Source of the DNA: Chitinophaga pinensis
Lineage (GTDB): Bacteria > Bacteroidota > Bacteroidia > 2-12-FULL-35-15
DNA length: 64,000 bases
Direction of reading: 5' to 3'
Assembly (NCBI GenBank): GCA_945879015.1
Contig: CAMCUO010000005.1
Span: 1,306-65,305, forward strand
Below are positions 13,441 to 33,304 of this stretch, one piece after another. The notes beneath the pieces were generated by a model. That model saw only the letters and a list, made by a program, of their open reading frames with translations, was not told where the DNA came from and ran no database searches. Position numbers and translations under genes: made by a program. Position 1 is the stretch's first letter. Each line of letters begins with the position of its first letter.

Positions 13441-13851
13441 ATGAAAAAACTTATCTATTCTCTTGTAATTACATTTTTAATGGGATTATCGGTAAACACA
13501 TTCGCTCAAAAAGCAGTTGCTACTATGGCATATTTGAATGTTAAAACTTCTAAAAAAGTTGTAGATGATAAAACTGCAATTGTTAGCTTTCAGTTAAATA
13601 ACATTTCAGATGAAGCTACATTAGCAAAATATAAGAAAGCATTTTCTTCTCAACAAAGAATTCAGTCAGTAACTACTTCTTTGCAAAAAGGAAATATGGC
13701 TTCTTTTTATATTAAAATGGACAAAACAGCAACACTAGAAACTTTACAAAGATTATTCGTTAAGGCACATGTTGCATCAGTAAATGTTGATGGCAAAGTT
13801 GCAGCTACTAAAGATCTTTCTAAATTAAAACAAAAATCTGCTAAAAAATAA
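13441..13851 (+). CDS. Small secreted hypothetical protein.
   Basis: 136 aa with signal peptide MKKLIYSLVITFLMGLSVNTFAQ; Lys-rich; no recognisable domain. Confidence 0.45.
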   Translation: MKKLIYSLVITFLMGLSVNTFAQKAVATMAYLNVKTSKKVVDDKTAIVSFQLNNISDEATLAKYKKAFSSQQRIQSVTTSLQKGNMASFYIKMDKTATLETLQRLFVKAHVASVNVDGKVAATKDLSKLKQKSAKK

Positions 13852-13871
13852 TATTTTTTCATACTTATAAA

Positions 13872-14999
13872 ATGGGTATTACTTTTTGTAATCCCCATTT
13901 TGTTTTTTACACCCATTCCATTATTGTGGTCGAACCGATAAACAAACAATTGCATTTCATCATTGGCATTGGACGCTCCGGAACGACCATTCTGAATAAG
14001 ATATTAAATTCTCATCCTTCTATTCACAGTTTACCAGAGGCAAATTTCCTTCTTTTTTTTCTGAACGATTATAAAAATGTAACTCGTTTTACAAAAGAGA
14101 ATATTGAGTTAATGTTTCAGCAGATTAAGATCTTTTCATTGTCGCATCCATTGGTTGGTTGGGAATTGGACATGGAAAATGCAAAGCAAAATCTTATAGA
14201 TATTGTTTCAAAAGGTGAATTGTCCTATGCTACACTTTGTAAAACTATTTATTCTGAAATTAAAGTAACAGGGAAAGACAAGTCAAACGCTACAATGCTG
14301 ATTGATAAAAATCCTGCTTTTACTTTATCAGTTGACCAATTGGAAAAACATTTTCCTGAATCAAAATTTATTTTGTTGGTTAGAGATTACAGAGCAAATG
14401 TATTGTCGAGAAAACAAAATGCTTATTTGAAATCACCTCTTGTGCCTTATAATGCTACTCGTTGGAGAGTTTTTAATCTGATTGCCAATAAGTTTTATCA
14501 AAAGCATAAGAGCAAAGTATTGTTATTGAGATATGAAGATTTGGTGAGCGAATACGATGCATCCATGAAAAAAGTGTTTGCCTTTTTAAATGTGAAAGAG
14601 GAAGATATGAAAGAAACGGACTTGTCGAAAGTGGATGTTTCAAAAATGGAAATTGCTAATGAGCATAAAAAATACTTTTCAAAAAAATATGAAGATTTAA
14701 GTAAGCCAATTAATACCAAGAGAGTAAATGCATGGCAAACAGAATTGAGCAAAGAGGATATTGCTGAGTGTGATACTATTTGTGCGAGTTTTGCTAAAGT
14801 GTTTGGTTATACAGAATTTACTCCTGTTCCTTTTTTCAAAAAAATCGGGATTATCTTAAAGAACATTTTTATTATTATTCCTTCTTATTTAGATATTAAA
14901 AAGGATCAGTTGTTGTACCACGTTTCTGCAAAAACAAAAATGAATGCTTTGATTAAGCGACACGAAACGCTTGGTTTTATTAAGCGTTCAGATTCGTAA
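13872..14999 (+). CDS. Sulfotransferase-family protein (PAPS-dependent).
   Basis: 5'-PSB P-loop IIGIGRSGTTILNKILNSHPS; about 370 aa; paralog of the adjacent convergent gene. Confidence 0.7.
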   Translation: MGITFCNPHFVFYTHSIIVVEPINKQLHFIIGIGRSGTTILNKILNSHPSIHSLPEANFLLFFLNDYKNVTRFTKENIELMFQQIKIFSLSHPLVGWELDMENAKQNLIDIVSKGELSYATLCKTIYSEIKVTGKDKSNATMLIDKNPAFTLSVDQLEKHFPESKFILLVRDYRANVLSRKQNAYLKSPLVPYNATRWRVFNLIANKFYQKHKSKVLLLRYEDLVSEYDASMKKVFAFLNVKEEDMKETDLSKVDVSKMEIANEHKKYFSKKYEDLSKPINTKRVNAWQTELSKEDIAECDTICASFAKVFGYTEFTPVPFFKKIGIILKNIFIIIPSYLDIKKDQLLYHVSAKTKMNALIKRHETLGFIKRSDS

Positions 15000-15052: not shown

Positions 15053-16096
15053 CTAAATCCGATTCTTCGAAGGAGAAGGCCTGAAGGCTAAAGGTAGCTT
15101 GTATTTTATCTTAATTAAAATTCCCCAGACTGAGGATTTCAAATAACAATAGTTGTAATATAGTTTATCGAAAATAGTAGTTTTTTTTGAAGGAATGTGT
15201 TTCGCATAACCGAATCTCAAAGCCAATTTCTCACAAGCAAAATCAAGCAAAGCAATTTCTTCCGATTTTAATTCATTCACATAAGCATTAACCCTTTCGG
15301 TATTTACCTTTTTTTCCAAATTACCGTGCATACGTTGAATTTTTTCATTCTTTTCCTTAGAAACATTTTCCACCGCATGCTTTTTTATCTCTTTTGAAAG
15401 TTCCTGAAAATTGAGCATTTGCTCGGTATACGGAACATGAATGTAGGAACAAAGCAATTGTAAGTGCTCTGTAGGATCACTTGCCAAGTCTTCATATTTA
15501 ATTAAATGATAGGGAATGTTTTTCGTGGCAAGACATTCAAAAATGCTTTCATAATAATAATTCCAATCGGCTGCCAACTTGTGAATTGGAACATTTTCAT
15601 CCGAATATTTTCTTCTCGATAAAATATTGTCTCTGTAATCTCTAACAATGACAATAAATTTTGCATCAGGAAAGATTTCTGAAATTTTATCAATGTGCAA
15701 AGAGTAAGATGGATTTTTATCGATTACCCAATTCACATTTTTCTTCTCTTTTTGAGATAGGGGGTAATTCAAATAAGCGAGCTTGCAAACATTTGCAAAA
15801 GTTTTATCCTTTAACTGAAGGATATCTTTCTTTAATTCCGGACCGGGTTTCCATATACTTATCACTCTGTTGAAATTTTGGTCGAACATATCAATAAATG
15901 CATCCACTACTTTCTCATCATTAAAATCCTGCTGATGAAAGGTGTGATAAGAGTGCATAATGAATTCGTTTTCTGGACTGGCAATAATCTCAGGATTGGA
16001 ATTGAGTATATTTGTGAGAAGAGTAGTGCCCGAGCGACCCATTCCTACAATAAAGGCAATTTTTGGTAAAGATGATAATGGTTTTAATTCAGTCAT
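15053..16096 (-). CDS. Sulfotransferase-family protein (PAPS-dependent), paralog.
   Basis: IVGMGRSGTTLLTNILNSNPEI P-loop; 347 aa; convergent with 13872-14999. Confidence 0.7.
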   Translation of the reverse strand: MTELKPLSSLPKIAFIVGMGRSGTTLLTNILNSNPEIIASPENEFIMHSYHTFHQQDFNDEKVVDAFIDMFDQNFNRVISIWKPGPELKKDILQLKDKTFANVCKLAYLNYPLSQKEKKNVNWVIDKNPSYSLHIDKISEIFPDAKFIVIVRDYRDNILSRRKYSDENVPIHKLAADWNYYYESIFECLATKNIPYHLIKYEDLASDPTEHLQLLCSYIHVPYTEQMLNFQELSKEIKKHAVENVSKEKNEKIQRMHGNLEKKVNTERVNAYVNELKSEEIALLDFACEKLALRFGYAKHIPSKKTTIFDKLYYNYCYLKSSVWGILIKIKYKLPLAFRPSPSKNRI

Positions 16097-16310: not shown

Positions 16311-18854
16311 ATGAGGCTAATTGACAAATATTTTCCTTTAATTTCAGTTACTTCAGAAAATCGGGAGGCGCTTTTCAATATCGATAGGCTTCGTTTTTTT
16401 AGTCTGGCTTTAGCGCAATTTATTTTAATTCTTTTTATTGTTACTCGCTATAATTTTGAAAAGTCATCAGGAATAATCGATTATGCTCCTTATGTTATTC
16501 TAGTATTTGCAATTTATAGTTTTATTGCCATCCGTTTTCGTCCAGCATTTCTATTTCTTGCGTGTGTTGCACTTGTTTATGCAGCATTTGGAATTCTGGC
16601 TGGAAGTTTTTTTATTCTTATCGGATTAGGTTTGATTTTAATTTGTCACTTACCTATAAAATATACTTATCGCTTTGTATTAATATTAGCTATTGCATTT
16701 CTTCTAGCTCTTTTTAGGACAGAATTTATTTACATTCCATGGATGACTATGACTGCTATGTACATGGCTCCATTGTTTATGTTCCGACTCATTATTTATT
16801 TGTATGAAATAAAGAACGGAGTGGTACCTGCAAATAAATGGCAAAGTATCAGTTACTTTTTTATGTTTCCAAATGTGTTCTTTCTCTTCTTTCCAATTAT
16901 CGATTACAAAACCTATATCAAAACACACCTCGATTCACCTGAAAAAGAAATATGGCAAAAAGGAATTCGATGGATGCTGCGTGGATTGATTCACATCATG
17001 TGTTATCGTTTGATCTGTTTTCATTTTTTAATCGGACCAGTTGAAGTAATTGACCTTCCAACAATGTTGCAATACATGGTGGTTAATTATTCTTTGATTA
17101 TCAGACTTTCTGGTGTATTTCATTTTATGATTGGTCTGGTTTGTATGTTTGGATTCAATCTTCCTCAAATATTTGACAATTATTTTACTGCTACCAGCTT
17201 TGTTGATTTGTGGAGAAGAATAAATATTTATTGGAGAAATTTCGTTCTAAAAATATTTTTCTACCCAACAATGTTTAGGTATAAAAAAATTCTGAAAAAG
17301 AATTTGTTGGCTTTTACCATGATGACGGTTTTCTTTATAACCTGGATAATGCATAGTTATCAGTTGTTTTGGATAACAGGTGTAGTTTCTGTTAGATCCA
17401 TAGATGTTATTTTTTGGATGGTGATTGGTGCATGTATAACTACAAATTCGGTAATTGTTGAAAAATATACTTTAGCTGAAGACAGAGTAGAAAAGCCTCA
17501 ATCGGAGTTTAAAAAGTATTTCATGAAAATAATCCGAATGATGGGAATGTTTCTTTTCATGTCAATTATGTGGTCGTTATGGAATACACGTACATTGGAA
17601 GATTGGCTTTTTATTGTTTCAAAAGGAAAACAAGTTGATTCGAAACAGTTACTTCTTATTTTTTCGGTTGTAATTGGAATTATTGGTTTAGGAATTCTTG
17701 TTCAGATGATGTTGAAAAATGTTAAGTTAAAACAGCTTATTAATAGGAAACCGCACGAAACAATTTTATTGACTTTGTCTACACTTACACTTCTAACATT
17801 ATTTTCTTTCAAAGAAATTCGTTCTAATATACCTTTATCAGTGCAACATTTGTACGATCAAATTTCTGATGGTTCAGCTAACAAACTTGAGAAAACAAAT
17901 GCTGAAGCAGGTTATTACGATAAATTGATTGAAGGCGAAGAGGGCAATACAATTGGCATAGGAGGAAGGTCATTAAAAAAGATGGTGAAGAAAAATCCTT
18001 ATACCAATGCTTATATTTATCAAAACAATATTGTAAACCGAAGAATGAAACCCAATCTCAACATTGTTGGTTCGGATCATAATTTTCAAAGTAATAGTTT
18101 TGGAATAAGAGATAAAGAGTATTCTATAAAAAAACCTCTTGGAACAAAACGTTTAGCATTGCTTGGCGGCTCTTATCAAATGGGTTCTGGTGTAAATAAC
18201 AATGAAGTTTTTGAAGCCATTGCAGAAGAAAGAATGAACAAAGAGTTGGTGGATACAAATTATAAAGCTTTTGAAATTTTCAATTTTGCTGCTGGTGGTT
18301 ATTATTTGTTGCAGCATGTTGAAATAGTTCATACATCTGTATTTCAATACGACATGGATGCCTTGGTATATTTTGCGCATACTGATGAAAGAGGCAAAGT
18401 GGTAAAAGATTTTACTACTATTATCAAGAAAGAATTGCCATTGAAATACCCATTTCTTCAGCAAATTGTCAAAGAAAGCGGCATTAAATCTTATATGAGT
18501 ATTTTACAAATAAGAGAATTACTGACTCCATATGCCGATACAATTATGAAATGGGGTTATAAGGAAATATATGAGCAATGTAAAAAGAACAATGTGGTTC
18601 CTGTTTGGGCCTATATGGAAACTACTACTGAGTTTGTTGATGATGCAGAATATAATGAGCTAAAAGCATACGCTGAATCATTAGGTTTTGTAACTTTGGA
18701 TTTACGCAATACCTATGGCAATATTGATAGAGTTGAAATTCAGATTTCGGATTTAAATACTCACCCAAATGTATTAGGACATCGATTGATTGCTGAAAGG
18801 TTTTATAAAGAGTTGAAATTAAAAAGAGATAGTATTTTTAGAATTGTTGAATAA
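16311..18854 (+). CDS. Fused MBOAT (DltB/AlgI-like) membrane O-acyltransferase plus C-terminal DltD/SGNH-like extracytoplasmic domain.
   Basis: 847 aa. The N-terminal roughly 450 aa is polytopic, with the MBOAT motif LWRRINIYWRNF (the WRRWHIS analog; its His is replaced by Asn) and the invariant His in TWIMHSY. After two more TMs, a roughly 340 aa domain has GGSYQMGSG (block I-like) and DLNTHPNVLGHRLIAE (SGNH block V, DxxH). Confidence 0.75.
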   Translation: MRLIDKYFPLISVTSENREALFNIDRLRFFSLALAQFILILFIVTRYNFEKSSGIIDYAPYVILVFAIYSFIAIRFRPAFLFLACVALVYAAFGILAGSFFILIGLGLILICHLPIKYTYRFVLILAIAFLLALFRTEFIYIPWMTMTAMYMAPLFMFRLIIYLYEIKNGVVPANKWQSISYFFMFPNVFFLFFPIIDYKTYIKTHLDSPEKEIWQKGIRWMLRGLIHIMCYRLICFHFLIGPVEVIDLPTMLQYMVVNYSLIIRLSGVFHFMIGLVCMFGFNLPQIFDNYFTATSFVDLWRRINIYWRNFVLKIFFYPTMFRYKKILKKNLLAFTMMTVFFITWIMHSYQLFWITGVVSVRSIDVIFWMVIGACITTNSVIVEKYTLAEDRVEKPQSEFKKYFMKIIRMMGMFLFMSIMWSLWNTRTLEDWLFIVSKGKQVDSKQLLLIFSVVIGIIGLGILVQMMLKNVKLKQLINRKPHETILLTLSTLTLLTLFSFKEIRSNIPLSVQHLYDQISDGSANKLEKTNAEAGYYDKLIEGEEGNTIGIGGRSLKKMVKKNPYTNAYIYQNNIVNRRMKPNLNIVGSDHNFQSNSFGIRDKEYSIKKPLGTKRLALLGGSYQMGSGVNNNEVFEAIAEERMNKELVDTNYKAFEIFNFAAGGYYLLQHVEIVHTSVFQYDMDALVYFAHTDERGKVVKDFTTIIKKELPLKYPFLQQIVKESGIKSYMSILQIRELLTPYADTIMKWGYKEIYEQCKKNNVVPVWAYMETTTEFVDDAEYNELKAYAESLGFVTLDLRNTYGNIDRVEIQISDLNTHPNVLGHRLIAERFYKELKLKRDSIFRIVE

Positions 18855-18888: not shown

Positions 18889-19152
18889 ATGCGTGCAGAC
18901 ATTAACGAAATAAAAGAAACAGTAAAGGCGTTCGTTAATAAACGTTTTTTAAAAAATGCTGAAGGGAAAGAATTAAACTATTCAACTCCTCTCATTTCTG
19001 GTGGTATTATTGATTCGATACTTGCTATGCAGTTGGTTGTTTTCCTAGAACAAACCTACAGGTTTGAATTTCAAGCACACGAAGTTGATAAAGATAATTT
19101 AGATAACATCGATATCATTGCAGGGTTTGTTGTAAAGAAGTTGAATGCATAA
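18889..19152 (+). CDS. D-alanyl-carrier-protein-like (DltC-like) small carrier protein.
   Basis: 87 aa. GGIIDSILAMQLVVFLEQ has the phosphopantetheine Ser in a DltC-like context. Its stop overlaps the next start (ATGCATAA). Confidence 0.75.
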   Translation: MRADINEIKETVKAFVNKRFLKNAEGKELNYSTPLISGGIIDSILAMQLVVFLEQTYRFEFQAHEVDKDNLDNIDIIAGFVVKKLNA

Positions 19153-20599
19153 GGTAAATAAGCTATATCAGCTTCTTGAAAATTCGGCAGAACAGTTTCC
19201 GGATAATACTGCTTTAGTTTTGCAAGAAAAAAAGATTAGCTATCAACAATTAGATTCATTAGCTAATAAAATAAAACAAGCTCTTCATTCTATAAACATT
19301 TCTGAAGGAAATCGTATCGCTATTTGCTCTCCTAAATCCATTGAATTTGTCGCCTCTATTTTCGGAATATTAAAAGCTGGTGCTGCTTATGTTCCTGTTG
19401 ATTATAATTCACCTATTGAACGCAATAATTTTATTATTGAAAATTGTGAAGTAGCTGCAATTATTATTACTAAAGACTTGTTAGAAAATTTTAAAAATAA
19501 TTTTACGTTTTTCGCAGATATTGGAATTGATTTAGTTTTAGCAAAAAGCAATAAGGTAACATTAAAAAAATCTTCTGAAGATTTATCCTATATTCTATAT
19601 ACTTCAGGCTCAACGGGAAATCCAAAGGGTGTAATTTATACCAATGCTGGAGCACTTGAATTTATCAATTGGAGTTCAAATACTTTTTCTCCCACTTCGA
19701 GTGATTGTTTTTCGTCGCATGCGCCTTTTCATTTCGATCTTTCTATTTTTGATTTATATGTTTCTATAAAGCATGGAGCAACTTTGGTTCTGATAAAAGA
19801 AGAAGTGGCGAAACAACCTATGCTATTGGCTCAATTAATTTCAGAACAAAAAATTAGTATTTGGTATTCTACTCCTTCAATTCTAATAATGCTTTCGGAA
19901 TATGGCAAAATGGAAAAGTATAAGTATGATAGTTTGAGATTGATATTATTTGCTGGTGAAGTTTTCCCAATTGTCAAATTAAATACATTAAAGAAAAAAG
20001 TTAAAACATCGGTTTTTTATAATCTTTATGGACCAACAGAAACAAATGTTTGTACGTATTATCAATTGCCTGAAAATATTGAAACAAATATTCCGATTGG
20101 AAAAGTATGCGAACATTATCAAGCCTGTGTTGTTGGTGATGAGCTTTTAATTAGCGGAAAAGGTGTGATGTTGGGTTATTGGAATGTTCCTGAAAAAGAT
20201 AATTTTTGGAAGGACCAAGAAAATAGATTTTGGTACAAAACGGGTGATTTGGTAGATGTTGCAGAGAGTGGAGATTATATCTTTAAAGGCAGAAGAGATA
20301 GAATGGTGAAGCGCAATGGTTATAGAATAGAATTGGATGAAATAGAAACAGGATTAAGTAAACATCCCGATATTGTTATTGCGGCTGTTGTCAGTAAGAA
20401 CAATGAAGAAGAGCAAATGATTATTTCTGCCTTTGTTGTTTTAAGAAATACTGAGCAAAAATCAGTCATAAAAATGAAGGAATATTGTATGAATCACTTA
20501 CCTTCGTATATGGTTCCCAACGACTTTATTTTTGTTGAGGATTTGCCACAAACATCAAGCAATAAAGTGGATTATCAGAAATTAAAACAATTAGCCTAA
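19145..20599 (+). CDS. Stand-alone adenylation enzyme (ANL superfamily), DltA-like aminoacyl-carrier-protein ligase.
   Basis: Motifs: YTSGSTGNPKGV (A3), FHFDLSIFDLY (A4; Asp rather than Glu after the pocket, as in DltA), YGPTE (A5), YKTGD (A7), GRRDRMVKRNGYRIELDEIE (A8), NKVD (A10). About 484 aa; no C or T domain. Confidence 0.8.
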   Translation: MHKVNKLYQLLENSAEQFPDNTALVLQEKKISYQQLDSLANKIKQALHSINISEGNRIAICSPKSIEFVASIFGILKAGAAYVPVDYNSPIERNNFIIENCEVAAIIITKDLLENFKNNFTFFADIGIDLVLAKSNKVTLKKSSEDLSYILYTSGSTGNPKGVIYTNAGALEFINWSSNTFSPTSSDCFSSHAPFHFDLSIFDLYVSIKHGATLVLIKEEVAKQPMLLAQLISEQKISIWYSTPSILIMLSEYGKMEKYKYDSLRLILFAGEVFPIVKLNTLKKKVKTSVFYNLYGPTETNVCTYYQLPENIETNIPIGKVCEHYQACVVGDELLISGKGVMLGYWNVPEKDNFWKDQENRFWYKTGDLVDVAESGDYIFKGRRDRMVKRNGYRIELDEIETGLSKHPDIVIAAVVSKNNEEEQMIISAFVVLRNTEQKSVIKMKEYCMNHLPSYMVPNDFIFVEDLPQTSSNKVDYQKLKQLA

Positions 20600-23179: not shown

Positions 23180-23201
23180 ATAGCATTGTGCACCCATTCG
23201 T

Positions 23202-24806: not shown

Positions 24807-24850
24807 CCACTCTTTATTTATTATATTTGTTTTAGTAAAAACTCTAGCAA

Positions 24851-27196: not shown

Positions 27197-28107
27197 ATGA
27201 TTTCGTCTTCGTTATAGGAAGGCGCATTGTTCAAAGCTTTTAACATCTGACTTATATATTGTGCGACAATTCCAATGCAGAAAATAATTATACCTGTAGA
27301 AAAAAGAATACTTACAATCAAAGAAGTATAACCTTCCACATCAATTTTTAAGTAAAACTTTTTAATGATGTAAAAAATTCCAATAATGAAATTGATAGTA
27401 GCTAAACTAAATCCAATATAGGTTACCAATTTTAATGGTAGAGTAGATGAAAACATGATGATGGTAGAAGTCATCTTAAACAATCCTGCTACTTTGTAAC
27501 GTTGCTTATGTATGTAATCAGGATTTGCATTTACATCTACAAAGGCTAATTTTTTTGTGTACCATAAACACAATTCATCAATAAAAACAAATTGTTTGTG
27601 ATTGTGTACCAACTTATCAGTCAGTGATTTTTTTAATAATCTAAAACTGCTTCCTTTTCCTTTTTGTGGGCCTTCCAGCTTTGCTAGTATTTTATATGCT
27701 CCAGAAAAAATTCCTCTAAAAAAAGGTTGATTTTGTTTTGGATACAATCCATAAACCAGATCAGCATTTGTATTTTTTTGATTATCGATTAGCTTTTGAA
27801 TTTCTGAAGGGTGAACTTCTAAATCATCATCAATGGTAATAACAAAATCTCCTTTCGCATGTTTGAAGCCACAAACAGTAGCTCCGTGCTGACCGAAATT
27901 TTTACTTAAGCGAATAATGGTTGTGTTGGATGAACTTGCTTTTATTTTTTTTAATACTTCCCAGCTATTGTCGGTACTACAATCATCCACAAAAATAATT
28001 TCGTAGGAATATTTGTTTTCAAAAAATGAAACAATGCTTTGGTGCACCTTCTCAAGTGCATTTTCAGAACCATAAACTGGAATAACTATGCTATAGTTTG
28101 TGCTCAT
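27190..28107 (-). CDS. Family-2 glycosyltransferase, polyprenyl-phosphate sugar synthase type (ArnC/GtrB/DPM1-like).
   Basis: SIVIPVYGSENALEKV...YEIIFVDDCSTDNS (DxD). Two C-terminal TM helices; about 305 aa, the ArnC architecture. Confidence 0.75.
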   Translation of the reverse strand: MSTNYSIVIPVYGSENALEKVHQSIVSFFENKYSYEIIFVDDCSTDNSWEVLKKIKASSSNTTIIRLSKNFGQHGATVCGFKHAKGDFVITIDDDLEVHPSEIQKLIDNQKNTNADLVYGLYPKQNQPFFRGIFSGAYKILAKLEGPQKGKGSSFRLLKKSLTDKLVHNHKQFVFIDELCLWYTKKLAFVDVNANPDYIHKQRYKVAGLFKMTSTIIMFSSTLPLKLVTYIGFSLATINFIIGIFYIIKKFYLKIDVEGYTSLIVSILFSTGIIIFCIGIVAQYISQMLKALNNAPSYNEDEIIC

Positions 28108-28847
28108 ATTTTACTATTTAAAAGTAATCCACCATCCATTTTTATAACTGTTCCAGTAATTCTTTTTGATGCGGCACTTAATAAAAACGCAGCAGTATTT
28201 GCAACATCAATTGGTTCACTTATTCCAAGTGGGTAACGACTTTCAATTTCTGCAAATTCTTCTTTTGAATAAATTTGCTCTGCTTGTTCCAAAATTTTTG
28301 TCCGAACCAGACCAGGAGCAATGGTGTTTACTCGTATTTTTTTAGAAGCTGTTTCCAAAGCCAATCCTAAAGCAAAAGACTCTAATGCAGCTTTTGATGC
28401 AGTATAAAGCGAACCTCCCGTGTATGGATGATTTGCAGAAATGGATGAAATGAAAACAACTGATGCTTCGTTATTTAATTTTTTTGCAGATAATAATCCA
28501 CTACTCAGCAATACAGCCGATGAAAAATTTATTTTAAAAAGTTCATCAATGTGTCTTGATTTTAAAAACTTTATTGGAAGTGGATTGATAATTCCAGCAC
28601 AATGAACGAAACCATCAATAGCAGGTATTTTAGAAATCAAATAATTAATTTCCTCTTCGTTTGACAAATCAGCAATAAAAAAGCCTGCTTTATTTTTTAA
28701 TAATGCTTTTGTTTTATTTAATTCATCAGCATTGCGACCAGTGATAATGATATTAGCACCCAAAGAATCACACAATTGCGCAGTTGCTCTTCCTATTCCA
28801 GAAGTAGCACCAGTCACCAAAATTGTTTTATTCTCAAGCTCTGTCAT
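28104..28847 (-). CDS. SDR-family 3-oxoacyl-ACP reductase (FabG-like).
   Basis: TGATSGIGRATA Rossmann motif; YTASKAAL catalytic YxxxK. Confidence 0.8.
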   Translation of the reverse strand: MTELENKTILVTGATSGIGRATAQLCDSLGANIIITGRNADELNKTKALLKNKAGFFIADLSNEEEINYLISKIPAIDGFVHCAGIINPLPIKFLKSRHIDELFKINFSSAVLLSSGLLSAKKLNNEASVVFISSISANHPYTGGSLYTASKAALESFALGLALETASKKIRVNTIAPGLVRTKILEQAEQIYSKEEFAEIESRYPLGISEPIDVANTAAFLLSAASKRITGTVIKMDGGLLLNSKI

Positions 28848-29892
28848 ATTCTAAAAGTTTTGTATAAACATTTTCGGTTTCTAAAATAACACTTCCCCAG
28901 GAATATCCAACTCCGAAACCACTCAATAACAAAGATAATTTTTTTGTTCGTAATGCTTCTTTCATTTTGTAGCACATGGTTAATGGAATAGAAGCGGAGC
29001 TAGTGTTCCCAAAAACATCTATAGAATAAGGCACTTTTTCAAGATCTATTTTTAATTTTTTTCTCACACTTTCGTTGATGAGCTTGTTGGCTTGATGCAT
29101 AACGAAGTAATCTGTATTCTCTTTTGATTTATTACTTTTTTCATAAAGTGTAGTAATATTTGAAGCCGCTTCTTTCAATGCAAAATTAAAAACATCCATT
29201 CCATTTAAAATCAAATGCTTTTTTGCTCTACTAATTCCTGGTTCAATTTCTACTAAATCTTCCAATGTTTTATCAAACGGTGTTCTGCAACTTCCATGTT
29301 CAATTATGATTGCATTTTTTCCGGAGCCATCGCTTTGTAAATTAAAATGCATTTCATTTTTAGTTTGTGAATGCTCTATCAATGTTGCGGTTCCTGCATC
29401 TCCAAAAAGTGGATAAGTGCTTTTATCGGTATATGTTGTAGATGTAGATGACTTATCTCCAACTATCAATAAGCCTTTTTTTAATTGTCCGCTTTGCATT
29501 AAGTTGGTGATTACCGACAATCCATAAACATATCCAGAACAACCTAAGCTGATATCAAATGCGATACAATCTTTTTTTAATCCTAAACGGTTTTGTAATA
29601 AAATGGAAGTCGCTGGTAAAATATAATCGGGTGACTGAGAAACAAAAATCAGGACATCAATTTCTTCAGCACAATTATATTTATCTAATAAATGTTTAGC
29701 TGCTGTAAAACATAAATCGGAGCAAGCAACATCTTTAGCGGCAACTCTTCTTTCTTTTATTCCAGTAGTTTTTGCAAATAATTCTCTTTCCTCAACTGAA
29801 ATATGATTGTAATCGGCAGTTTTTTCTATGTGAGTTGGCACACAGCTGGAGATTGCAATAATATTCGTTTTAGTAGTAGATAGATAGGCCAC
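28834..29892 (-). CDS. 3-oxoacyl-ACP synthase III (FabH-like), copy A.
   Basis: Cys-His-Asn triad: SLGCSGYVYGL, MHQANKLI, FGNTSSASIP. Confidence 0.8.
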   Translation of the reverse strand: MAYLSTTKTNIIAISSCVPTHIEKTADYNHISVEERELFAKTTGIKERRVAAKDVACSDLCFTAAKHLLDKYNCAEEIDVLIFVSQSPDYILPATSILLQNRLGLKKDCIAFDISLGCSGYVYGLSVITNLMQSGQLKKGLLIVGDKSSTSTTYTDKSTYPLFGDAGTATLIEHSQTKNEMHFNLQSDGSGKNAIIIEHGSCRTPFDKTLEDLVEIEPGISRAKKHLILNGMDVFNFALKEAASNITTLYEKSNKSKENTDYFVMHQANKLINESVRKKLKIDLEKVPYSIDVFGNTSSASIPLTMCYKMKEALRTKKLSLLLSGFGVGYSWGSVILETENVYTKLLEYDRA

Positions 29893-30129
29893 TTATTTTA
29901 ATTTTTCGATAGTAATATTATAAAGATCTTGGATTGTTTGTGCCGATTTTAAATCAGCGCCATTTAATAATGCATTAAAATTCGCATCAATGTATGCAAT
30001 GATAATTAAGGCATGCATACTGCTCCAACCTTTTATACTTCTAAAGTTTGTAGCGGAGCTAAGAGTCCCAGGTTCTAAATCTTCAAATTCAACTTCTAAA
30101 CCTTTCGTAAATTCTTCTATGCTATTCAT
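29893..30129 (-). CDS. Acyl carrier protein (dedicated).
   Basis: 78 aa acidic. KGWSSMHALIII has the Ser attachment site. Sits between the two KASIII genes. Confidence 0.6.
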   Translation of the reverse strand: MNSIEEFTKGLEVEFEDLEPGTLSSATNFRSIKGWSSMHALIIIAYIDANFNALLNGADLKSAQTIQDLYNITIEKLK

Positions 30130-30165
30130 AAATGTAAATATATTAAAATATACAATTCAAGATGA

Positions 30166-31179
30166 CTATAGCTCAATAATGGTTGCACCCCAAGACAAAC
30201 CGACTCCAAATCCTGCGAGTAATATTTTTTGTCCTGGTTTTGCTTTTCCTGATTTAATGGCTTCACTTAATGTAATGGGGATGCTTGCAGCAACTGTGTT
30301 TCCAACACCTGCCATGTAATTAAAAACTTTTTCCTCCGGAATTTTCATTTTTGTTCGTATGGAATTAATCAAAAATAAATTCGCTTGATGAAAAATAAAA
30401 AGATCAACGTCTTCGATATTTAATTTTTCTTTCGCCAATAAATCTTTAATCATTGCTGGAACAGTTTTTAATCCAAAATGAAAAACTCCAGCACCGTCCA
30501 TGTGTAAATTAGCATCGGTAGTCACATTTCCGTGTTCATTTTCTATTTCAATAAAAGAATTTTTTGAAATTGGATTTCTTGCACCACCATCTCTGATGAT
30601 AATTTTTTCTGCCATTTTTCCATCTGTTCCAAAAACGAATGAACTAATGTTAGCATTTTTTTTACCAGACGAAATGAGCGTTGCAGCTGCACCATCACCA
30701 AAAACAAATTTTGAACTTCTATCTTTTTTATGAATATTTTTTGTGAGTGTTGAAGAAGTAATTAGCAAAACATTTTTCAATCCCAAAGACTCAATCATTC
30801 CTTTTGCCATCCCTAATCCATATACAAATCCGCTACAACCTAAACTGTAATCCATTGCTCCAGCATTTATTGGAAGCCCTAATTTTGCTTGTATGATAGA
30901 GGCAGAGGCAGGAAACATGTAATCAAACTCCAAAGCACAAAAAAGTAAAAAATCAATTTCTTCAGGTTTAACTTTGTGTTCTTTGAAAAGTGCTAATGCT
31001 GCTTTAACAGCAAGATCAGAAGCTGTTTCATTTTTAGCTACTATATGCCTTTCAACAACTCCAATTCTTGCATAGTTTTCTTTTTGAGAAACAGTTGCAG
31101 GAAAAGCTTTGAAAAAATCTGTATTACTATAGATTTTTTCGGGAAGATAATAACTGATAGCTTTTATGAATGCCGACAT
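30166..31179 (-). CDS. 3-oxoacyl-ACP synthase III (FabH-like), copy B.
   Basis: SLGCSGFVYGL, FIFHQANLFL, AGVGNTVAASIP. Confidence 0.8.
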   Translation of the reverse strand: MSAFIKAISYYLPEKIYSNTDFFKAFPATVSQKENYARIGVVERHIVAKNETASDLAVKAALALFKEHKVKPEEIDFLLFCALEFDYMFPASASIIQAKLGLPINAGAMDYSLGCSGFVYGLGMAKGMIESLGLKNVLLITSSTLTKNIHKKDRSSKFVFGDGAAATLISSGKKNANISSFVFGTDGKMAEKIIIRDGGARNPISKNSFIEIENEHGNVTTDANLHMDGAGVFHFGLKTVPAMIKDLLAKEKLNIEDVDLFIFHQANLFLINSIRTKMKIPEEKVFNYMAGVGNTVAASIPITLSEAIKSGKAKPGQKILLAGFGVGLSWGATIIEL

Positions 31180-31279
31180 CTTTGTAAAATGAATAGAAAA
31201 TATTTAAAAAGTGTTTATGACAATTTTCGAATTAAAAGTACAAAAATACTTTCTCATCTTGGGAAAAACTTAATTATAT

Positions 31280-33304
31280 TTGGTGGGTAAAGAATTGTAT
31301 AGAATTTCAATGAAAAAGAACAAAGTAAAGGAAGCCCCTAAGCCTGAAAAAAAGATTGTTGAAAACGTGTTCAGTGAAAAAAAATTGAATCGTAGAATAA
31401 TTTTATTTTTTGTGCTTTTATGTTTTTTGGTTTACGGGAAAAGTATCAAGAATAATTATTCTATGGATGATGAGTTTGTTGTTAGAAATAACCAACAAGT
31501 TCAAAGAGGAATTGAAGCAATACCTGAAATTTTTAGAACAACCTATGTTGTAAATAGTCAAAAATCGAACTACGAATATCGTCCAATTGTTAAAGCATCA
31601 TTTGCGTTAGAGTGTGAGTTTTTTGGAGTAAATCCACATGTTAGTCATTTCATAAATGTGTTGCTTTATACTTTAGCGATAGTATTGCTTTACATGACTC
31701 TCAAGGCTTTACTGTCGAAATACAATATACTTCTTCCTTTTATAATTACGACTTTATTTTTGATTCATCCATTGCATTCCGAAGTTGTAATAAGCATTAA
31801 AAATAGAGATGTTATTTTAAGTTTTACAGGATTTATTCTTTCCATATTCTTTTATTTAAAATTCATTGAAACAAAAAAATATTATCACTTATTTTTCGGA
31901 GTATTTTTTATTCTTTTTGGATTGATGTCTAAAAAAGATGCGATGACCATTGTTGCTATTATTCCCTTTACTCTTTGGTTTTTAAAAGATGTTTCTTTCA
32001 AACGAATGATTCCAATTTTTATTTCTTACATATTTCCAATTCTCATTTATCGATTTGCAAACAAAATTGCGAATCATAATTTTTCGAGAAAAACATTGGA
32101 TTGGGAAAATCCTTTATATCTGGGTTCAACTTTAGCGGATCGTATTCCGAGCGGATTTTATAGCATTTATTTTTATCTAAAAATGTTTTTAATTCCGCAT
32201 CCGCTTGTTTCCTACTATGGCTACAATCAAGTGCCTATAGCTACTTGGTCGAATGCAATTGTATGGATTGTTTTAATCGGATTAATAGGCGTAGGTTATT
32301 ATGTAATTAAAAATTTCAAAACAAAAGGAATTGAAATTTTTGGAATTCTATTCTTTTTAGTAACCATTTCAATGTTTACAAATGTGTTGGTTCCAGTTGT
32401 AGGTATTGTAGGTGAGCGATTTGCATTTATTCCATCACTAGGATTGTGTTTTATATCAGCTTGGGCTTTGTTTAAAGGTTTTAAAATTGCTTTTGAAAAC
32501 AAAGAATTGAAATTTCCAGCACTTTCAAGTCCGATTTTCGTGACTTTAGGTTTAGTTGTTTTGCTATTTAGTATCCGTTCATTTGTTAGAATAAAAGATT
32601 GGAAGGATACATTTACTTTGTATCAAACAGATGTTAAAAATGCTCCAGAATCGGCTCATGCCAACTCATTGATAGCAGCAGCATCCATTCAAAAGATTAA
32701 GGAAAATGAAAAAATGAGCATAAATCAGAAACGATTTTATGTTCAAAATGCGGAAAAATACTATTTAGAATCCATTCGCATTATTCCAGACTACATCTCT
32801 TCCTTAAACAATTTGGGAATGATTTATTACACCTATTACAATCAGCCTGAAAAGTCGATTCCCTATCTTAAAAAGGCAATATCATTAGATACAAATTATG
32901 TGGAAGCATACTTTAACTTAGCGACTTGTGAAGCAAAGGGGAAAAACTATGTTGAAGCAGAAAAACATTACCTGAAATCAATAGAAATTGACTCCAATTT
33001 TGTGAGCACTTATTTTTCATTAAGCGCCATGTATGCGGAAGAAAAGAAGTATGATGAAATTTTAAAATTGAATCAAAATGCTATAGATAAAGGGGTTAAG
33101 GCAGATGTATTGCATGTGAATATTGGTAATGTTTATTTCATGAGAAAGGATACAATTTCTGCAGTACCGCATTTTGAAGAATGCATACGTTTGAACTCAA
33201 ATAACAGGTTTTTGAACTCGTTTTTGGCCAATTATTTCAAAGAAAAGGGTGATTTAGTGAAAGCGAACAAATATTATGACTTGATGGGGGCTTCAAAACG
33301 TTAA
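31280..33304 (+). CDS. GT-C fold membrane glycosyltransferase (ArnT/PMT family-like) with a C-terminal TPR domain.
   Basis: About 11 N-terminal TM helices. C-terminal TPRs: YFNLATCEAKGKNYVEAEKHYLKSIEIDSNF, YFSLSAMYAEEKKYDEILK. Divergent from the KASIII/GT2 operon. Confidence 0.65.
   Translation: MVGKELYRISMKKNKVKEAPKPEKKIVENVFSEKKLNRRIILFFVLLCFLVYGKSIKNNYSMDDEFVVRNNQQVQRGIEAIPEIFRTTYVVNSQKSNYEYRPIVKASFALECEFFGVNPHVSHFINVLLYTLAIVLLYMTLKALLSKYNILLPFIITTLFLIHPLHSEVVISIKNRDVILSFTGFILSIFFYLKFIETKKYYHLFFGVFFILFGLMSKKDAMTIVAIIPFTLWFLKDVSFKRMIPIFISYIFPILIYRFANKIANHNFSRKTLDWENPLYLGSTLADRIPSGFYSIYFYLKMFLIPHPLVSYYGYNQVPIATWSNAIVWIVLIGLIGVGYYVIKNFKTKGIEIFGILFFLVTISMFTNVLVPVVGIVGERFAFIPSLGLCFISAWALFKGFKIAFENKELKFPALSSPIFVTLGLVVLLFSIRSFVRIKDWKDTFTLYQTDVKNAPESAHANSLIAAASIQKIKENEKMSINQKRFYVQNAEKYYLESIRIIPDYISSLNNLGMIYYTYYNQPEKSIPYLKKAISLDTNYVEAYFNLATCEAKGKNYVEAEKHYLKSIEIDSNFVSTYFSLSAMYAEEKKYDEILKLNQNAIDKGVKADVLHVNIGNVYFMRKDTISAVPHFEECIRLNSNNRFLNSFLANYFKEKGDLVKANKYYDLMGASKR

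What the first reader, a model, noticed from the sequence alone, without database searches (positions are those of the whole stretch)
13441..33304. A roughly 20 kb accessory island wedged between uvrD and the str ribosomal operon, with two sulfotransferases at its left end
Every gene from 13441 to 33304 is accessory-type: a secreted small protein, two convergent PAPS-sulfotransferase paralogs (GRSGTT P-loops), the dlt-like/halogenase operon, the AspH triplet, DUF808, and the KASIII/GT operon. It is bracketed by core genes, and one of the palindromic repeat elements (23202-23325) sits inside it. Sulfotransferase, halogenase and hydroxylases together predict a heavily decorated (sulfated, halogenated, hydroxylated) envelope glycoconjugate or lipid.
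Basis: inference. Interest (0 to 1): 0.6.

Follow-up and report, generated by a model that had tools for sequence, protein, structure and literature searches.

The report
Surface-decoration cluster with Dlt-like halopyrrole module
The 20 kb between uvrD and the ribosomal-protein operon is a conserved but movable biosynthetic gene cluster of an uncultured Bacteroidota lineage, and its core looks like an undescribed relative of the Gram-positive D-alanylation (Dlt) machine that would attach a halogenated, proline-derived pyrrole group to something on the cell surface.

Summary

"Accessory" is right in one sense. uvrD and rpsL are direct neighbours in five or six more distant genomes, and close relatives carry different subsets and arrangements. 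It is not a foreign island: GC, codon usage and 4-mers match the flanks, and there are no mobility genes or flanking repeats.

The genes are not a random set. Almost all of them recur together, reshuffled, at other loci in relatives whose key protein is only 41-50% identical. That marks one biosynthetic cluster.

The main finding is the operon at 16311-23179:
- an 847-aa single-chain MBOAT (best fold match DltB) with an invariant Tyr-Tyr motif and an SGNH domain;
- a carrier protein;
- a proline-type adenylase (code DLFYLALVCK);
- a prolyl-carrier dehydrogenase;
- a flavin halogenase.

The first four genes stay linked in 53 of 63 assessable loci across metagenomes and in a cultured Microvirga. 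The published view is that Dlt is the only carrier-protein-fed MBOAT/SGNH pathway.

Most likely function: (halo)pyrrole-2-carboxyl transfer across the membrane onto a surface acceptor built or decorated by the neighbouring genes. The acceptor and the chemistry are untested.

The parts
10828..13251 (-). uvrD, the left core flank. Not part of the cluster.
   Evidence: Pfam UvrD-helicase and UvrD_C. Genes further left keep their order in relatives.
13441..13851 (+). Small (136 aa) predicted secreted protein of unknown function that travels with the cluster.
   Evidence: N-terminal hydrophobic segment 4-22. No family hit. Homologues next to the cluster in L001-L003, L018 and L084, 44-73% identical.
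13872..14999 (+). PAPS-type sulfotransferase 1.
   Evidence: Sulfotransfer_3 and Sulfotransfer_1. GIGRSGTT and RDYRANVLS motifs.
15053..16096 (-). PAPS-type sulfotransferase 2, a 33% identical paralogue convergent with the first.
   Evidence: Pfam and motifs. Closest solved relatives are TPST1/2 and the CurM/OLS sulfotransferases.
16311..18854 (+). Single-chain MBOAT (about residues 1-440), two extra helices, an invariant GYYxxL motif (Y535/Y536) in a flexible linker, and an SGNH domain (about 565-847). Proposed transmembrane acyltransferase that offloads the carrier protein.
   Evidence: AF2 pLDDT 84. Foldseek top hits DltB 6bug/8jem, then HHAT and PORCN. C-terminal hits are SGNH esterases. 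Invariant W301, R303, N305, H348, Y535, Y536, S621, N658, H818. Linked to carrier protein, adenylase or ACAD in 53 of 63 assessable loci.
18889..19152 (+). 87-aa peptidyl carrier protein (GGIIDS phosphopantetheine site).
   Evidence: PP-binding hit is weak. Sub-threshold standalone-ACP hits. 28% identical to PigG, which has the same length. Present within 1.5 kb of the MBOAT in 55 of 73 loci.
19145..20599 (+). Stand-alone adenylation enzyme, predicted to be L-proline specific.
   Evidence: Best single-domain solved matches are the prolyl-carrier-protein ligases 6o6e (273 bits) and 7thn. Specificity code DLFYLALVCK, against PigI DLFYIAWVCK. 35% identical to PigI.
20599..21747 (+). Prolyl-carrier-protein dehydrogenase (ACAD fold), predicted to make pyrrolyl-2-carboxyl-S-carrier protein.
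   Evidence: Three of the four best solved matches are annotated prolyl-ACP/PCP dehydrogenases (4irn, 5zw0, 6af6). The fourth, 6cxt, is deposited as butyryl-CoA dehydrogenase. NCBIfam PigA 418 bits and RedW 381 bits, both below equivalog cut-offs.
21791..23179 (+). Flavin-dependent halogenase of the type that acts on carrier-tethered substrates.
   Evidence: Solved matches 8zop, CndH, Bmp2, CmlS, Mpy16 and PltA. GGGPTGS, K70 aligned with CndH K76, GWIWVIP and GDAGAFLDP all present.
23194..23330 (.). GC-rich palindromic repeat element between the convergent halogenase and hydroxylase genes. Not specific to the island.
   Evidence: Hairpin -79.4 kcal/mol, z = -9.1. Sibling at 7760-7893.
23350..25537 (.). 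Three Fe(II)/2-oxoglutarate hydroxylase paralogues of the AspH/LpxO/OlsC family (23350-24063 -, 24063-24806 -, 24851-25537 +).
   Evidence: Asp_Arg_Hydrox. OlsC scores above LpxO in NCBIfam, all below cut-off. Human AspH is the closest solved structure. 28-38% identical to each other.
25603..26526 (-). DUF808 membrane protein, probably an unrelated lineage-specific insertion.
   Evidence: GC 0.406 against about 0.33. Absent from the otherwise colinear cluster in the closest relative L166 and from the reshuffled clusters.
26585..31179 (-). Operon KASIII - ACP2 (29893-30129) - KASIII - SDR ketoreductase - ArnC/PgfS-like polyprenyl-phosphate GT2 - PseH-like GNAT. Proposed to make an N-(hydroxyacyl) amino sugar on a polyprenyl phosphate carrier.
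   Evidence: Pfam and NCBIfam. Cys-His-Asn triads and overlapping gene junctions. GT2 has C-terminal TM helices. The block is conserved in L007, L018, L062, L084, L086-L088, L094, L165 and L166.
31280..33304 (+). Polytopic membrane protein with C-terminal TPR repeats. Candidate GT-C (PMT_2/TMTC-like) glycosyltransferase using the polyprenyl-phosphate sugar.
   Evidence: About 10 TM helices. Invariant D63-D64 in the first loop. Family members match TMTC_DUF1736 (6 of 10) and PMT_2 (5 of 10). JGI names some homologues 'protein O-mannosyl-transferase'. The window protein itself has no Pfam hit in this domain.
33640..34041 (+). rpsL, the first gene of the str/S10 ribosomal operon and the right core flank.
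   Evidence: Ribosom_S12_S23. Directly adjacent to uvrD in L030, L038, L050, L060 and L077.

Best explanation
The uvrD-rpsL interval holds one native biosynthetic gene cluster for a decorated cell-surface product. It sits in a spot of the chromosome that is rearranged often in this uncultured Bacteroidota lineage.

Shown:
- The gene content.
- Conservation of the set as a unit at different loci.
- Native composition.
- The architecture of the 847-aa protein.
- Tight, cross-phylum linkage of that protein to a carrier protein, a proline-type adenylase and a prolyl-carrier dehydrogenase.

Inferred mechanism:
1. The adenylase loads L-proline onto the 87-aa carrier protein.
2. The ACAD-family enzyme oxidises it to pyrrolyl-2-carboxyl-S-carrier protein.
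3. The flavin halogenase chlorinates or brominates the tethered pyrrole.
4. The MBOAT domain takes the acyl group from the carrier protein at the cytoplasmic face, as DltB does from DltC. It passes the group to the invariant Tyr (Y535 or Y536) on the outer face.
5. The fused SGNH domain (S621/H818) moves it onto a hydroxyl of an extracytoplasmic acceptor.

The neighbouring genes probably build or further decorate that acceptor:
- Two KASIII enzymes, ACP2 and a ketoreductase make a short hydroxyacyl-ACP.
- The GNAT puts it on an amino sugar.
- The ArnC-like GT2 loads the sugar on polyprenyl phosphate.
- The GT-C/TPR protein transfers it outside the cytoplasm.
- The hydroxylases and sulfotransferases add OH and sulfate groups in the cytoplasm.

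The acceptor could be a glycolipid or LPS, a polysaccharide, or a secreted protein. This is not determined.
For: Variable interval:
- rpsL abuts uvrD in L030, L038, L050, L060 and L077.
- Close relatives have the full set (L001-L003), the set without the pyrrole cassette (L007, L018), the cassette inverted or on the other side of uvrD (L009, L023, L032, L051), or none within 10 kb.

One cluster:
- L084, L086, L087, L088 and L094 (MBOAT 41-50% identical) carry KASIII-ACP2-KASIII-SDR-GT2-GNAT-hydroxylase(s)-MBOAT-PCP-A-ACAD-halogenase together, with or without sulfotransferases, the GT-C/TPR gene and the small protein.
- L166 is colinear with the window but lacks DUF808.

Native composition.

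MBOAT-SGNH:
- Structure and fold.
- Invariant H348, Y535/Y536, S621 and H818.
- The acyl-Tyr shuttle concept, and Dlt as the only carrier-protein-fed case, come from PMC12148441.

Coupling:
- Carrier protein within 1.5 kb in 55 of 73 loci, adenylase in 44 of 52, ACAD in 40 of 46.
- 53 of 63 linked overall.
- No other recurrent neighbour, so no other enzyme is available to offload the carrier protein.
- The same four genes occur in cultured Microvirga sp. VF16.
- Gene junctions are 34, -8, -1 and 43 nt.

Proline to halopyrrole.

Glycan module.
Against: - Nothing biochemical has been tested.
- The window's 847-aa protein has no sequence-level hit to any Pfam, NCBIfam or PDB entry. The MBOAT assignment rests on a predicted structure with modest TM-scores (0.56-0.60 to DltB).
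- The Tyr motif is GYYxxL, not the published FXYXXF, and sits before a fused domain rather than at a C-terminus.
- Ten of 63 assessable family members, including Rhodocaloribacter, have no adjacent carrier-protein genes. The family may be able to use acyl-CoA.
- The ACAD scores below the NCBIfam equivalog cut-offs, and its best solved match (AnaB) stops at a two-electron oxidation.
- The module genes for the glycan part are separable from the pyrrole cassette (L007, L018, L062). Co-location need not mean one product.
- Genes for the amino-sugar nucleotide, a flavin reductase and a phosphopantetheinyl transferase are not in the island.
Confidence: 0.55

Rival explanations
1. The pyrrole cassette makes a free small molecule, such as a halogenated pyrrole carboxylic acid or polyhalopyrrole used as an antibiotic or signal. 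The MBOAT-SGNH protein is an ordinary acetyl-CoA-dependent O-acetyltransferase for a polysaccharide that happens to be encoded next door.
For: - All characterised PltF/PltL/PltE/PltA-type cassettes feed diffusible natural products (established knowledge of pyoluteorin, prodigiosin and bmp pathways; solved matches).
- All MBOAT/SGNH pathways other than Dlt use acyl-CoA (PMC12148441).
- Rhodocaloribacter's homologue sits in a polysaccharide cluster without carrier-protein genes.
- 10 of 63 family members are unlinked.
Against: - Linkage of the four genes holds in 53 of 63 loci at 28-35% identity and across phyla. No thioesterase, condensation domain or ketosynthase recurs that could release or extend the tethered pyrrole.
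- The MBOAT gene is the first gene of the same tightly packed operon.
Confidence: 0.2
2. The cluster is a post-translational modification toolkit for secreted proteins such as giant type IX secretion adhesins. It would combine TMTC/PMT-like O-glycosylation, TPST-like tyrosine sulfation, AspH-like Asp/Asn hydroxylation and MBOAT-mediated acylation. This rival differs from the best explanation only in the acceptor.
For: - The GT-C family matches protein O-mannosyltransferase families.
- The GT2's second-best match is PgfS, from an adhesin glycosylation system.
- The closest solved sulfotransferases are TPST1/2, and the closest solved hydroxylase is human AspH.
- Giant PKD/CHU_C proteins and a small secreted protein flank the cluster in L003, L007-L009, L018, L084 and L165-L167.
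- The MBOATs HHAT and PORCN, which acylate secreted proteins, are among the fold matches.
Against: - The sulfotransferases and hydroxylases have no signal peptide or TM segment, so they act in the cytoplasm.
- The window has no giant adhesin gene in or beside the island.
- NCBIfam places the hydroxylases nearer the lipid enzymes OlsC and LpxO.
- The CurM-type sulfotransferase match is the longer one.
- The KASIII/ACP/ketoreductase/GNAT set points to acyl-sugar chemistry.
Confidence: 0.2
3. The interval is a classical horizontally acquired genomic island: an unrelated collection of accessory genes recently inserted between two core genes.
For: - Presence and absence vary among relatives, and the uvrD-rpsL junction is empty elsewhere.
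- A repeat element lies inside the interval.
- DUF808 has deviant GC.
Against: - No compositional signal: GC, GC3, codon usage p = 0.93, 4-mer r = 0.989.
- No integrase, transposase or phage genes.
- No adjacent tRNA and no flanking direct repeats.
- The genes recur as a co-inherited set in relatives whose MBOAT is 41-50% identical.
Confidence: 0.05

Closest known systems
Dlt pathway (DltA, DltC, DltB, DltX, DltD) for D-alanylation of teichoic acids in Firmicutes
   Same: - An adenylase loads an amino acid on a small carrier protein.
- An MBOAT sits in the membrane. DltB is the best structural match.
- There is an SGNH-type extracytoplasmic transferase.
- An invariant Tyr lies between the two catalytic centres.
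- The module is self-contained, with the acceptor encoded elsewhere.
   Different: - The amino acid is proline-type, not D-alanine.
- It is oxidised, and here also halogenated, while tethered.
- The MBOAT, the Tyr motif and the SGNH domain are one polypeptide.
- The motif is GYYxxL rather than FXYXXF.
- The hosts are Gram-negative (Bacteroidota, Alphaproteobacteria) and have no teichoic acids.
- The first conserved MBOAT His (WRRWH) is Asn (WRRIN); this comparison is from memory of the DltB/AlgI motif.
Thiotemplated pyrrole cassettes (PltF/PltL/PltE/PltA of pyoluteorin; PigI/PigG/PigA of prodigiosin; Bmp4/Bmp1/Bmp3/Bmp2)
   Same: The same four protein types in the same logic, with best solved and curated matches to these enzymes. 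The specificity code is 8 of 10 identical to PigI. The halogenase catalytic Lys and WxWxIP motif are present.
   Different: There is no polyketide synthase, condensation domain or thioesterase downstream. The only conserved partner is a membrane acyltransferase. The halogenase is present in only a subset of loci (13 of 23 assessable).
PatA/PatB, AlgI/AlgJ/AlgX and WssH/WssI MBOAT-SGNH O-acetylation systems of Gram-negative bacteria
   Same: An MBOAT plus an SGNH protein acylating an extracytoplasmic polymer through an acyl-Tyr intermediate carried on two extra helices after the MBOAT core (PMC12148441).
   Different: Those systems use acetyl-CoA and have no carrier protein, and their two proteins are separate. 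Here the proteins are fused and genetically tied to a carrier-protein loading set.
Arn/Lgm/Flm/Pgf-type periplasmic glycosylation (an ArnC- or GtrB-like GT2 plus a GT-C transferase)
   Same: The GT2 aligns over its full length to ArnC and PgfS and has C-terminal TM helices. A polytopic GT-C candidate is encoded divergently next to the operon.
   Different: The GT-C is PMT_2/TMTC-like with TPR repeats rather than ArnT-like. The operon also encodes a KASIII/ACP/KASIII/ketoreductase set and a GNAT. Scores are far below equivalog cut-offs.

Membership tests
Horizontally acquired genomic island | Base composition or codon usage differs from the host core | tested here: not met
   GC 0.326 against 0.332. 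GC3 p = 0.25. Codon-usage distance p = 0.93. 4-mer r = 0.989.
Horizontally acquired genomic island | Integrase, transposase or other mobility genes; tRNA or direct repeats at the borders | tested here: not met
   None among the annotated genes. The only tRNA is at 55114. No flanking repeats.
Horizontally acquired genomic island | Variable presence among close relatives, with an empty site elsewhere | tested here: met
   uvrD and rpsL are adjacent in L030, L038, L050, L060 and L077. Content varies among relatives with 75-93% identical uvrD.
Dlt-type carrier-protein-fed MBOAT/SGNH acylation pathway | MBOAT fold with the conserved catalytic His | tested here: met
   Foldseek top hits are DltB 6bug and 8jem, E = 1e-7. 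H348 is invariant. No sequence-level Pfam hit.
Dlt-type carrier-protein-fed MBOAT/SGNH acylation pathway | SGNH-type partner with a catalytic Ser and His | tested here: met
   The C-terminal domain matches GDSL/SGNH esterases. S621, N658 and H818 are invariant. Some homologues carry PF13472.
Dlt-type carrier-protein-fed MBOAT/SGNH acylation pathway | Dedicated adenylase and carrier protein encoded with the MBOAT | tested here: met
   Adjacent in the window and in 53 of 63 assessable loci.
Dlt-type carrier-protein-fed MBOAT/SGNH acylation pathway | Acyl-shuttle motif FXYXXF with an invariant Tyr | tested here: inconclusive
   An invariant GYYxxL lies after two extra helices in the flexible linker. 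This is the same position as the published motif but a different sequence.
Dlt-type carrier-protein-fed MBOAT/SGNH acylation pathway | D-alanine as the acyl group and teichoic acid as the acceptor | tested here: not met
   The specificity code is proline-type. DltA scores lower than the prolyl ligases. The hosts are Gram-negative.
Dlt-type carrier-protein-fed MBOAT/SGNH acylation pathway | Acyl transfer from the carrier protein to the MBOAT | not testable with these tools
   Needs biochemistry or at least a multimer structure prediction.
Thiotemplated (halo)pyrrole biosynthesis | Proline-specific stand-alone adenylase | tested here: met
   The top single-domain solved matches are prolyl-carrier ligases. 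The code DLFYLALVCK is 8 of 10 identical to PigI. The family consensus is DLLYLALVCK.
Thiotemplated (halo)pyrrole biosynthesis | ACAD-fold prolyl-carrier-protein dehydrogenase | tested here: inconclusive
   Best solved matches are AnaB 4irn and the L-prolyl-PCP dehydrogenases 5zw0 and 6af6. PigA scores 418 bits and RedW 381 bits, below cut-offs of 500 and 650. Two-electron versus four-electron oxidation cannot be told from sequence.
Thiotemplated (halo)pyrrole biosynthesis | Flavin halogenase with the catalytic Lys and WxWxIP | tested here: met
   K70 aligns with CndH K76, and GWIWVIP is present. Matches include Bmp2, PltA, Mpy16 and CndH.
Thiotemplated (halo)pyrrole biosynthesis | Downstream PKS, NRPS or thioesterase that uses or releases the pyrrolyl thioester | tested here: not met
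   None in the island, and none recurs next to the module.
ArnC/GtrB-type polyprenyl-phosphate glycosyltransferase plus GT-C pair | GT2 catalytic domain with C-terminal TM helices, full-length similarity to ArnC/GtrB-like enzymes | tested here: met
   ArnC 119 bits over residues 5-300 and PgfS 116 bits, both below equivalog cut-offs. TM helices at 230-292.
ArnC/GtrB-type polyprenyl-phosphate glycosyltransferase plus GT-C pair | GT-C fold transferase with an acidic motif in the first outer loop | tested here: inconclusive
   About 10 TM helices and an invariant D63-D64. Family members hit PMT_2 and TMTC_DUF1736, but the window protein does not. The fold search was swamped by TPR hits.
PAPS-dependent sulfotransferases | 5'-phosphosulfate-binding loop and 3'-phosphate-binding motif | tested here: met
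   GxGRSGTT and RDYRxNxLS in both proteins. Pfam Sulfotransfer_3 at 97 and 112 bits.
LpxO/OlsC lipid acyl 2-hydroxylases | Membership above curated cut-offs | tested here: not met
   OlsC 104-133 bits against a cut-off of 450. LpxO 55-98 bits against 500. Only the superfamily (Asp_Arg_Hydrox) is established.

The most novel reading that the evidence does not exclude
The 847-aa protein and its carrier-protein, adenylase and dehydrogenase partners would define a second, widespread class of carrier-protein-fed MBOAT-SGNH envelope acylation systems. The class has at least 1,505 sequence clusters at 50% identity and is present in Bacteroidota and Alphaproteobacteria. It would esterify a cell-surface polymer with proline-derived pyrrole-2-carboxylate. 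In this lineage a halogenase makes that a halogenated surface modification, which as far as I know and as far as the literature searches here show has not been reported for a bacterial envelope.
Probability: 0.4. Interest if true: 0.85.

Novelty: new variant of a known kind. Interest (0 to 1): 0.7.

Why it matters
Bacterial surfaces are known to be tuned by acetyl and D-alanyl esters. The field currently treats Dlt as the only MBOAT/SGNH pathway that draws its acyl group from a carrier protein (PMC12148441).

A large, unannotated, cross-phylum family that couples a single-chain DltB/DltX/DltD-like protein to natural-product-style tailoring on a carrier protein would join two fields that have been studied apart: envelope acylation and thiotemplated secondary metabolism. 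It would also predict aromatic, and here halogenated, esters on Gram-negative surfaces. Such groups could affect phage, predator, antimicrobial-peptide or host interactions.

The idea is directly testable, because a cultured carrier (Microvirga sp. VF16) exists and each step has an established assay.

Tried and rejected
- **Sequence searches with the 847-aa protein** against PDB, Pfam and NCBIfam gave nothing. Only structure prediction plus fold search identified it.
- **ACP_for_OlsHI lead.** The carrier protein's best NCBIfam hit is sub-threshold (75 bits against a cut-off of 130). The OlsH/OlsI paper describes no carrier protein. Dead end.
- **LgrA as top adenylase match** (401 bits). This is a sum over two adenylation domains. 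Single-domain LgrA constructs score about 193 bits, below PltF at 273.
- **Literature search for the specificity-code string** found nothing. I verified the proline assignment against PigI from an annotated prodigiosin cluster instead.
- **Literature searches linking MBOAT or DltB** with halogenase, pyrrole or prolyl-carrier dehydrogenase found no such paper.
- **Sigma-70 promoter and intrinsic terminator scans** were at chance level: 87 against 85.7 expected, and 7 against 9.6. Bacteroidota promoters are not covered by the scan.
- **Rfam scan** found only the tRNA.
- **Search for further recurrent neighbours** of the four-gene module found none.
- **Test for a separate 'unlinked' MBOAT-SGNH subfamily** that might use acyl-CoA found no clean split.
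- **Plasmid collection search** for more cultured carriers found only Microvirga.

Full report
**What is there**

The window comes from an uncultured Bacteroidota genome. An identical gene is on ENA contig ERZ27280328 k141_2655788. The nearest uvrD relatives are freshwater, groundwater and soil MAGs labelled Bacteroidia or Bacteroidota, at 75-93% identity.

Three things need correcting or adding:
- A 78-aa carrier-protein-like ORF lies at 29893-30129 (-) between the two KASIII genes.
- The 'TPR' protein has about 10 transmembrane helices in front of its repeats.
- The halogenase most likely starts at 21791.

Gene junctions define two tight operons. On the plus strand: MBOAT/SGNH, 34 nt gap, PCP, 8 nt overlap, adenylase, 1 nt overlap, ACAD, 43 nt gap, halogenase. 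On the minus strand: KASIII, ACP2, KASIII, SDR, GT2, GNAT.

**Is it an island?**

I mapped the window's proteins onto 80 uvrD loci from species-representative genomes.
- In five more distant genomes (L030, L038, L050, L060, L077; uvrD 58-61% identical), rpsL-rpsG-fusA sits directly and divergently next to uvrD. L079 has a 6.5 kb gap. The interval can therefore be empty.
- Among closer relatives the content varies:
  - L001-L003 have the same left end as the window.
  - L007 and L018 have the KASIII/GT/hydroxylase/sulfotransferase genes but no pyrrole cassette.
  - L009, L032 and L051 have the cassette inverted.
  - L023 has the cassette on the other side of uvrD.
  - L006, L010-L016, L027, L035 and L078 have none of these genes within 10 kb. 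Sampled loci there carry T9SS cargo, PKD/CHU_C proteins, glycosyltransferases and sensor kinases instead.
- In L167 the uvrD-rpsL interval is about 24.5 kb with partly different content.

There is no sign of foreign origin:
- GC is 0.326 in the island against 0.332 in the flanks.
- GC3 does not differ (p = 0.25), and neither does codon-usage distance (p = 0.93).
- Tetranucleotide correlation with the flanks is 0.989, higher than that of the ribosomal operon.
- There are no mobility genes, no adjacent tRNA and no flanking repeats.
- The palindromic element at 23194-23330 is a strong hairpin, but it has a sibling at 7760-7893, outside the island.

**One cluster, not a collection**

The decisive result is that the same genes travel together elsewhere.
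- In L084, a 4.5 Mb metagenomic contig whose MBOAT is 46% identical, the order is: GT-C/TPR, KASIII, ACP2, KASIII, SDR, GT2, GNAT, two hydroxylases, two sulfotransferases, MBOAT/SGNH, PCP, adenylase, ACAD, halogenase, sulfotransferase, small secreted protein. It is not next to uvrD or rpsL.
- L086, L087, L088 and L094 repeat the pattern.
- L166, the closest relative with enough sequence, is colinear with the window except that DUF808 is missing. DUF808 also has deviant GC (0.406), so it is best read as an unrelated insertion.
- The KASIII/GT/hydroxylase/sulfotransferase part also exists without the pyrrole cassette (L007, L018, L062). The cluster is therefore modular.

**The 847-aa protein**

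It has no Pfam, NCBIfam or PDB sequence match. With a 45-sequence alignment, AlphaFold2 gives a confident model (pLDDT 84, pTM 0.78).
- The membrane domain's best solved matches are DltB (6bug, 8jem; E = 1e-7 to 8e-7), followed by HHAT, PORCN, DGAT1 and ACAT2.
- The C-terminal domain matches SGNH/GDSL esterases.
- W301, R303, N305, H348, G534, Y535, Y536, S621, N658 and H818 are invariant in all 64 sequences scored as linked or unlinked, down to 28% identity.

A 2025 study (PMC12148441) shows that bacterial MBOAT/SGNH systems pass the acyl group through an invariant Tyr in an FXYXXF motif. In Dlt the motif is on the microprotein DltX. In the other systems it is on two extra helices at the MBOAT C-terminus. 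The same study states that only Dlt uses a carrier-protein donor.

Here an invariant GYYxxL follows two extra helices (444-467, 485-519). It lies in the only low-confidence stretch of the model (529-561), just before the SGNH domain. The protein thus looks like DltB, the DltX motif and DltD in one chain. The Tyr assignment is an inference.

**The cassette**

- *Adenylase.* The best single-domain solved matches are two L-proline-[prolyl-carrier-protein] ligases (6o6e at 273 bits, 7thn at 230 bits). DltA scores about 199 bits. The higher LgrA score is a two-domain sum.
- *Specificity code.* I mapped the ten Stachelhaus positions by hand onto the GrsA numbering, from memory of the GrsA sequence. 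This gives DLFYLALVCK.
  - The PigI-position enzyme of an annotated Pseudoalteromonas xiamenensis prodigiosin cluster gives DLFYIAWVCK, 8 of 10 identical.
  - Across the wider family, 29 of 51 adenylases read DLLYLALVCK and 16 read DLFYLALVCK.
- *ACAD.* Its four best solved matches are 4irn (prolyl-ACP dehydrogenase, AnaB), 6cxt (deposited as butyryl-CoA dehydrogenase), and 5zw0 and 6af6 (L-prolyl-PCP dehydrogenases). From memory, 6cxt is Bmp3 and 5zw0 is PigA; I did not check this. Its best curated models are PigA and RedW, both below their equivalog cut-offs.
- *Halogenase.* It matches CndH, Bmp2, CmlS, Mpy16 and PltA. It keeps the flavin motif, the catalytic Lys (K70, aligned with CndH K76), WxWxIP and GDAxxFxDP.

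Together these four proteins form the standard proline to pyrrolyl-S-carrier to halopyrrolyl-S-carrier set.

**Coupling of the two**

I scanned metagenome contigs with the family alignment and kept 80 loci, most 28-35% identical. Among assessable loci:

| Partner gene | Distance from the MBOAT/SGNH gene | Loci with it |
|---|---|---|
| Carrier protein | within 1.5 kb | 55 of 73 |
| Adenylase | within 4 kb | 44 of 52 |
| ACAD | within 6 kb | 40 of 46 |
| Halogenase | within 8 kb | 13 of 23 |

With stricter bookkeeping, 53 of 63 members are linked.
- All-against-all clustering of neighbours found no other recurrent gene. There is no thioesterase, condensation domain or ketosynthase. The MBOAT/SGNH protein is therefore the only conserved candidate for offloading the carrier protein.
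- A cultured alphaproteobacterium, Microvirga sp. VF16, has the same four genes on replicon pMVF16-2.
- The family comprises 1,505 clusters at 50% identity with E <= 1e-30.
- Literature searches found no paper connecting an MBOAT with a halogenase, a pyrrole or a prolyl-carrier dehydrogenase.

**The rest of the cluster**

- The GT2 aligns end to end with ArnC and PgfS and has C-terminal TM helices. It is a polyprenyl-phosphate glycosyltransferase type.
- The membrane/TPR protein has an invariant D63-D64 in its first loop. Its family members match TMTC_DUF1736 (6 of 10) and PMT_2 (5 of 10), and JGI calls some of them protein O-mannosyltransferases. I could not confirm the fold directly.
- Both KASIII proteins keep the Cys-His-Asn triad and score as FabH.
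- The GNAT is PseH-like.
- A reasonable reading is that a short hydroxyacyl-ACP is built, put on an amino sugar, loaded onto polyprenyl phosphate and transferred outside the cytoplasm.
- One lead comes from memory only and is untested. Flavobacterium psychrophilum O-antigen carries a 3,5-dihydroxyhexanoyl amide on a 4-amino sugar. Two KASIII rounds plus a ketoreductase would produce exactly that acyl group.
- The hydroxylases are AspH-superfamily. NCBIfam puts them nearer OlsC and LpxO, but the only solved relatives are human AspH.
- The sulfotransferases have intact PAPS motifs. Their closest solved relatives are tyrosylprotein sulfotransferases and the CurM/OLS enzymes, which sulfate 3-hydroxyacyl-ACP.
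- None of these soluble enzymes has a signal peptide or TM segment, so they act in the cytoplasm.

**Acceptor**

This is the main open point.
- A lipid or glycan target fits the acyl-sugar genes and the OlsC/LpxO and CurM similarities.
- A secreted-protein target fits the PMT/TMTC-like GT-C, and the PgfS, TPST and AspH similarities. It also fits the giant PKD/CHU_C proteins and small secreted proteins that flank the cluster in many relatives. The window has no such giant gene.

I keep both readings as alternatives.

**Verdict**

The region is accessory and variable, but it is a native, modular biosynthetic cluster rather than an acquired island. Its 'dlt-like' operon is better described as a Dlt-like membrane acyltransferase fed by a halopyrrole cassette.
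- The combination is a new variant of known kinds. Its functional coupling is supported by strong comparative evidence, but no biochemistry has been done.
- Interest is fairly high. The four-gene core is large, cross-phylum, unannotated and contrary to the current statement that only Dlt uses a carrier protein, and it can be tested in a cultured organism.

Noticed in passing
window 54969-55657: A 39-nt stretch identical to part of the tRNA-Arg(CCG) gene (55114-55188, -) is repeated at 55021-55059 and 55566-55604. Each copy is fused to a GC-rich palindromic unit (families D1 and D2). These may be scars of integration events at the tRNA.
   Followed up: no
window 3615-3654, 15008-15047, 37193-37232: A second short GC-rich repeat family (core GTCACACTGAGCGGAGTCGAAGTGCG) sits in intergenic spots. 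One copy lies between the convergent sulfotransferase genes and one lies after rpsJ (family D3).
   Followed up: no
window 7760-7893 and 23194-23330: Two copies of a roughly 135-nt GC-rich palindromic element in an AT-rich genome. The island copy folds to -79.4 kcal/mol, z = -9.1. It is REP- or MITE-like and may act as a bidirectional terminator between convergent genes.
   Followed up: partly
window 25603-26526: The DUF808 gene has GC 0.406 and GC3 0.36, against about 0.33 and 0.25 for its neighbours. It is missing from the otherwise colinear cluster in the closest relative (L166) and from all reshuffled clusters. It is probably a separate insertion into the cluster.
   Followed up: partly
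L165 6372-15614; L166 12667-20388; L167 1640-5116 and 12651-21419; L084 18495-22532; L003, L007, L008, L009, L018 upstream of uvrD: Relatives carry giant (1,000-3,000 aa) genes on one or both sides of the cluster. Those annotated in L084 and L165-L167 are PKD/CHU_C type IX secretion proteins and are often preceded by a small secreted protein. The giant ORFs upstream of uvrD in L003, L007, L008, L009 and L018 were not annotated. The window has no giant gene. The 145-aa protein in L165 is distantly similar to the window's small protein family.
   Followed up: partly
L096, L118, L137, L164: Some metagenomic loci carry two or three tandem paralogues of the MBOAT-SGNH gene. Several of the 'unlinked' family members are such extra copies.
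   Followed up: no
L083 (Rhodocaloribacter litoris CP076718, 1003565-1026168): A 33% identical MBOAT-SGNH homologue sits in a polysaccharide cluster with GT4 genes, Wzy, two sulfotransferases and a heparinase-like gene. It has no carrier-protein genes within 10 kb. It could serve as a natural comparison case for donor specificity.
   Followed up: no
window 7978-9090: A 370-aa protein with a type IX secretion C-terminal sorting domain (Por_Secre_tail) lies in the conserved left flank. This shows that the organism uses T9SS.
   Followed up: no
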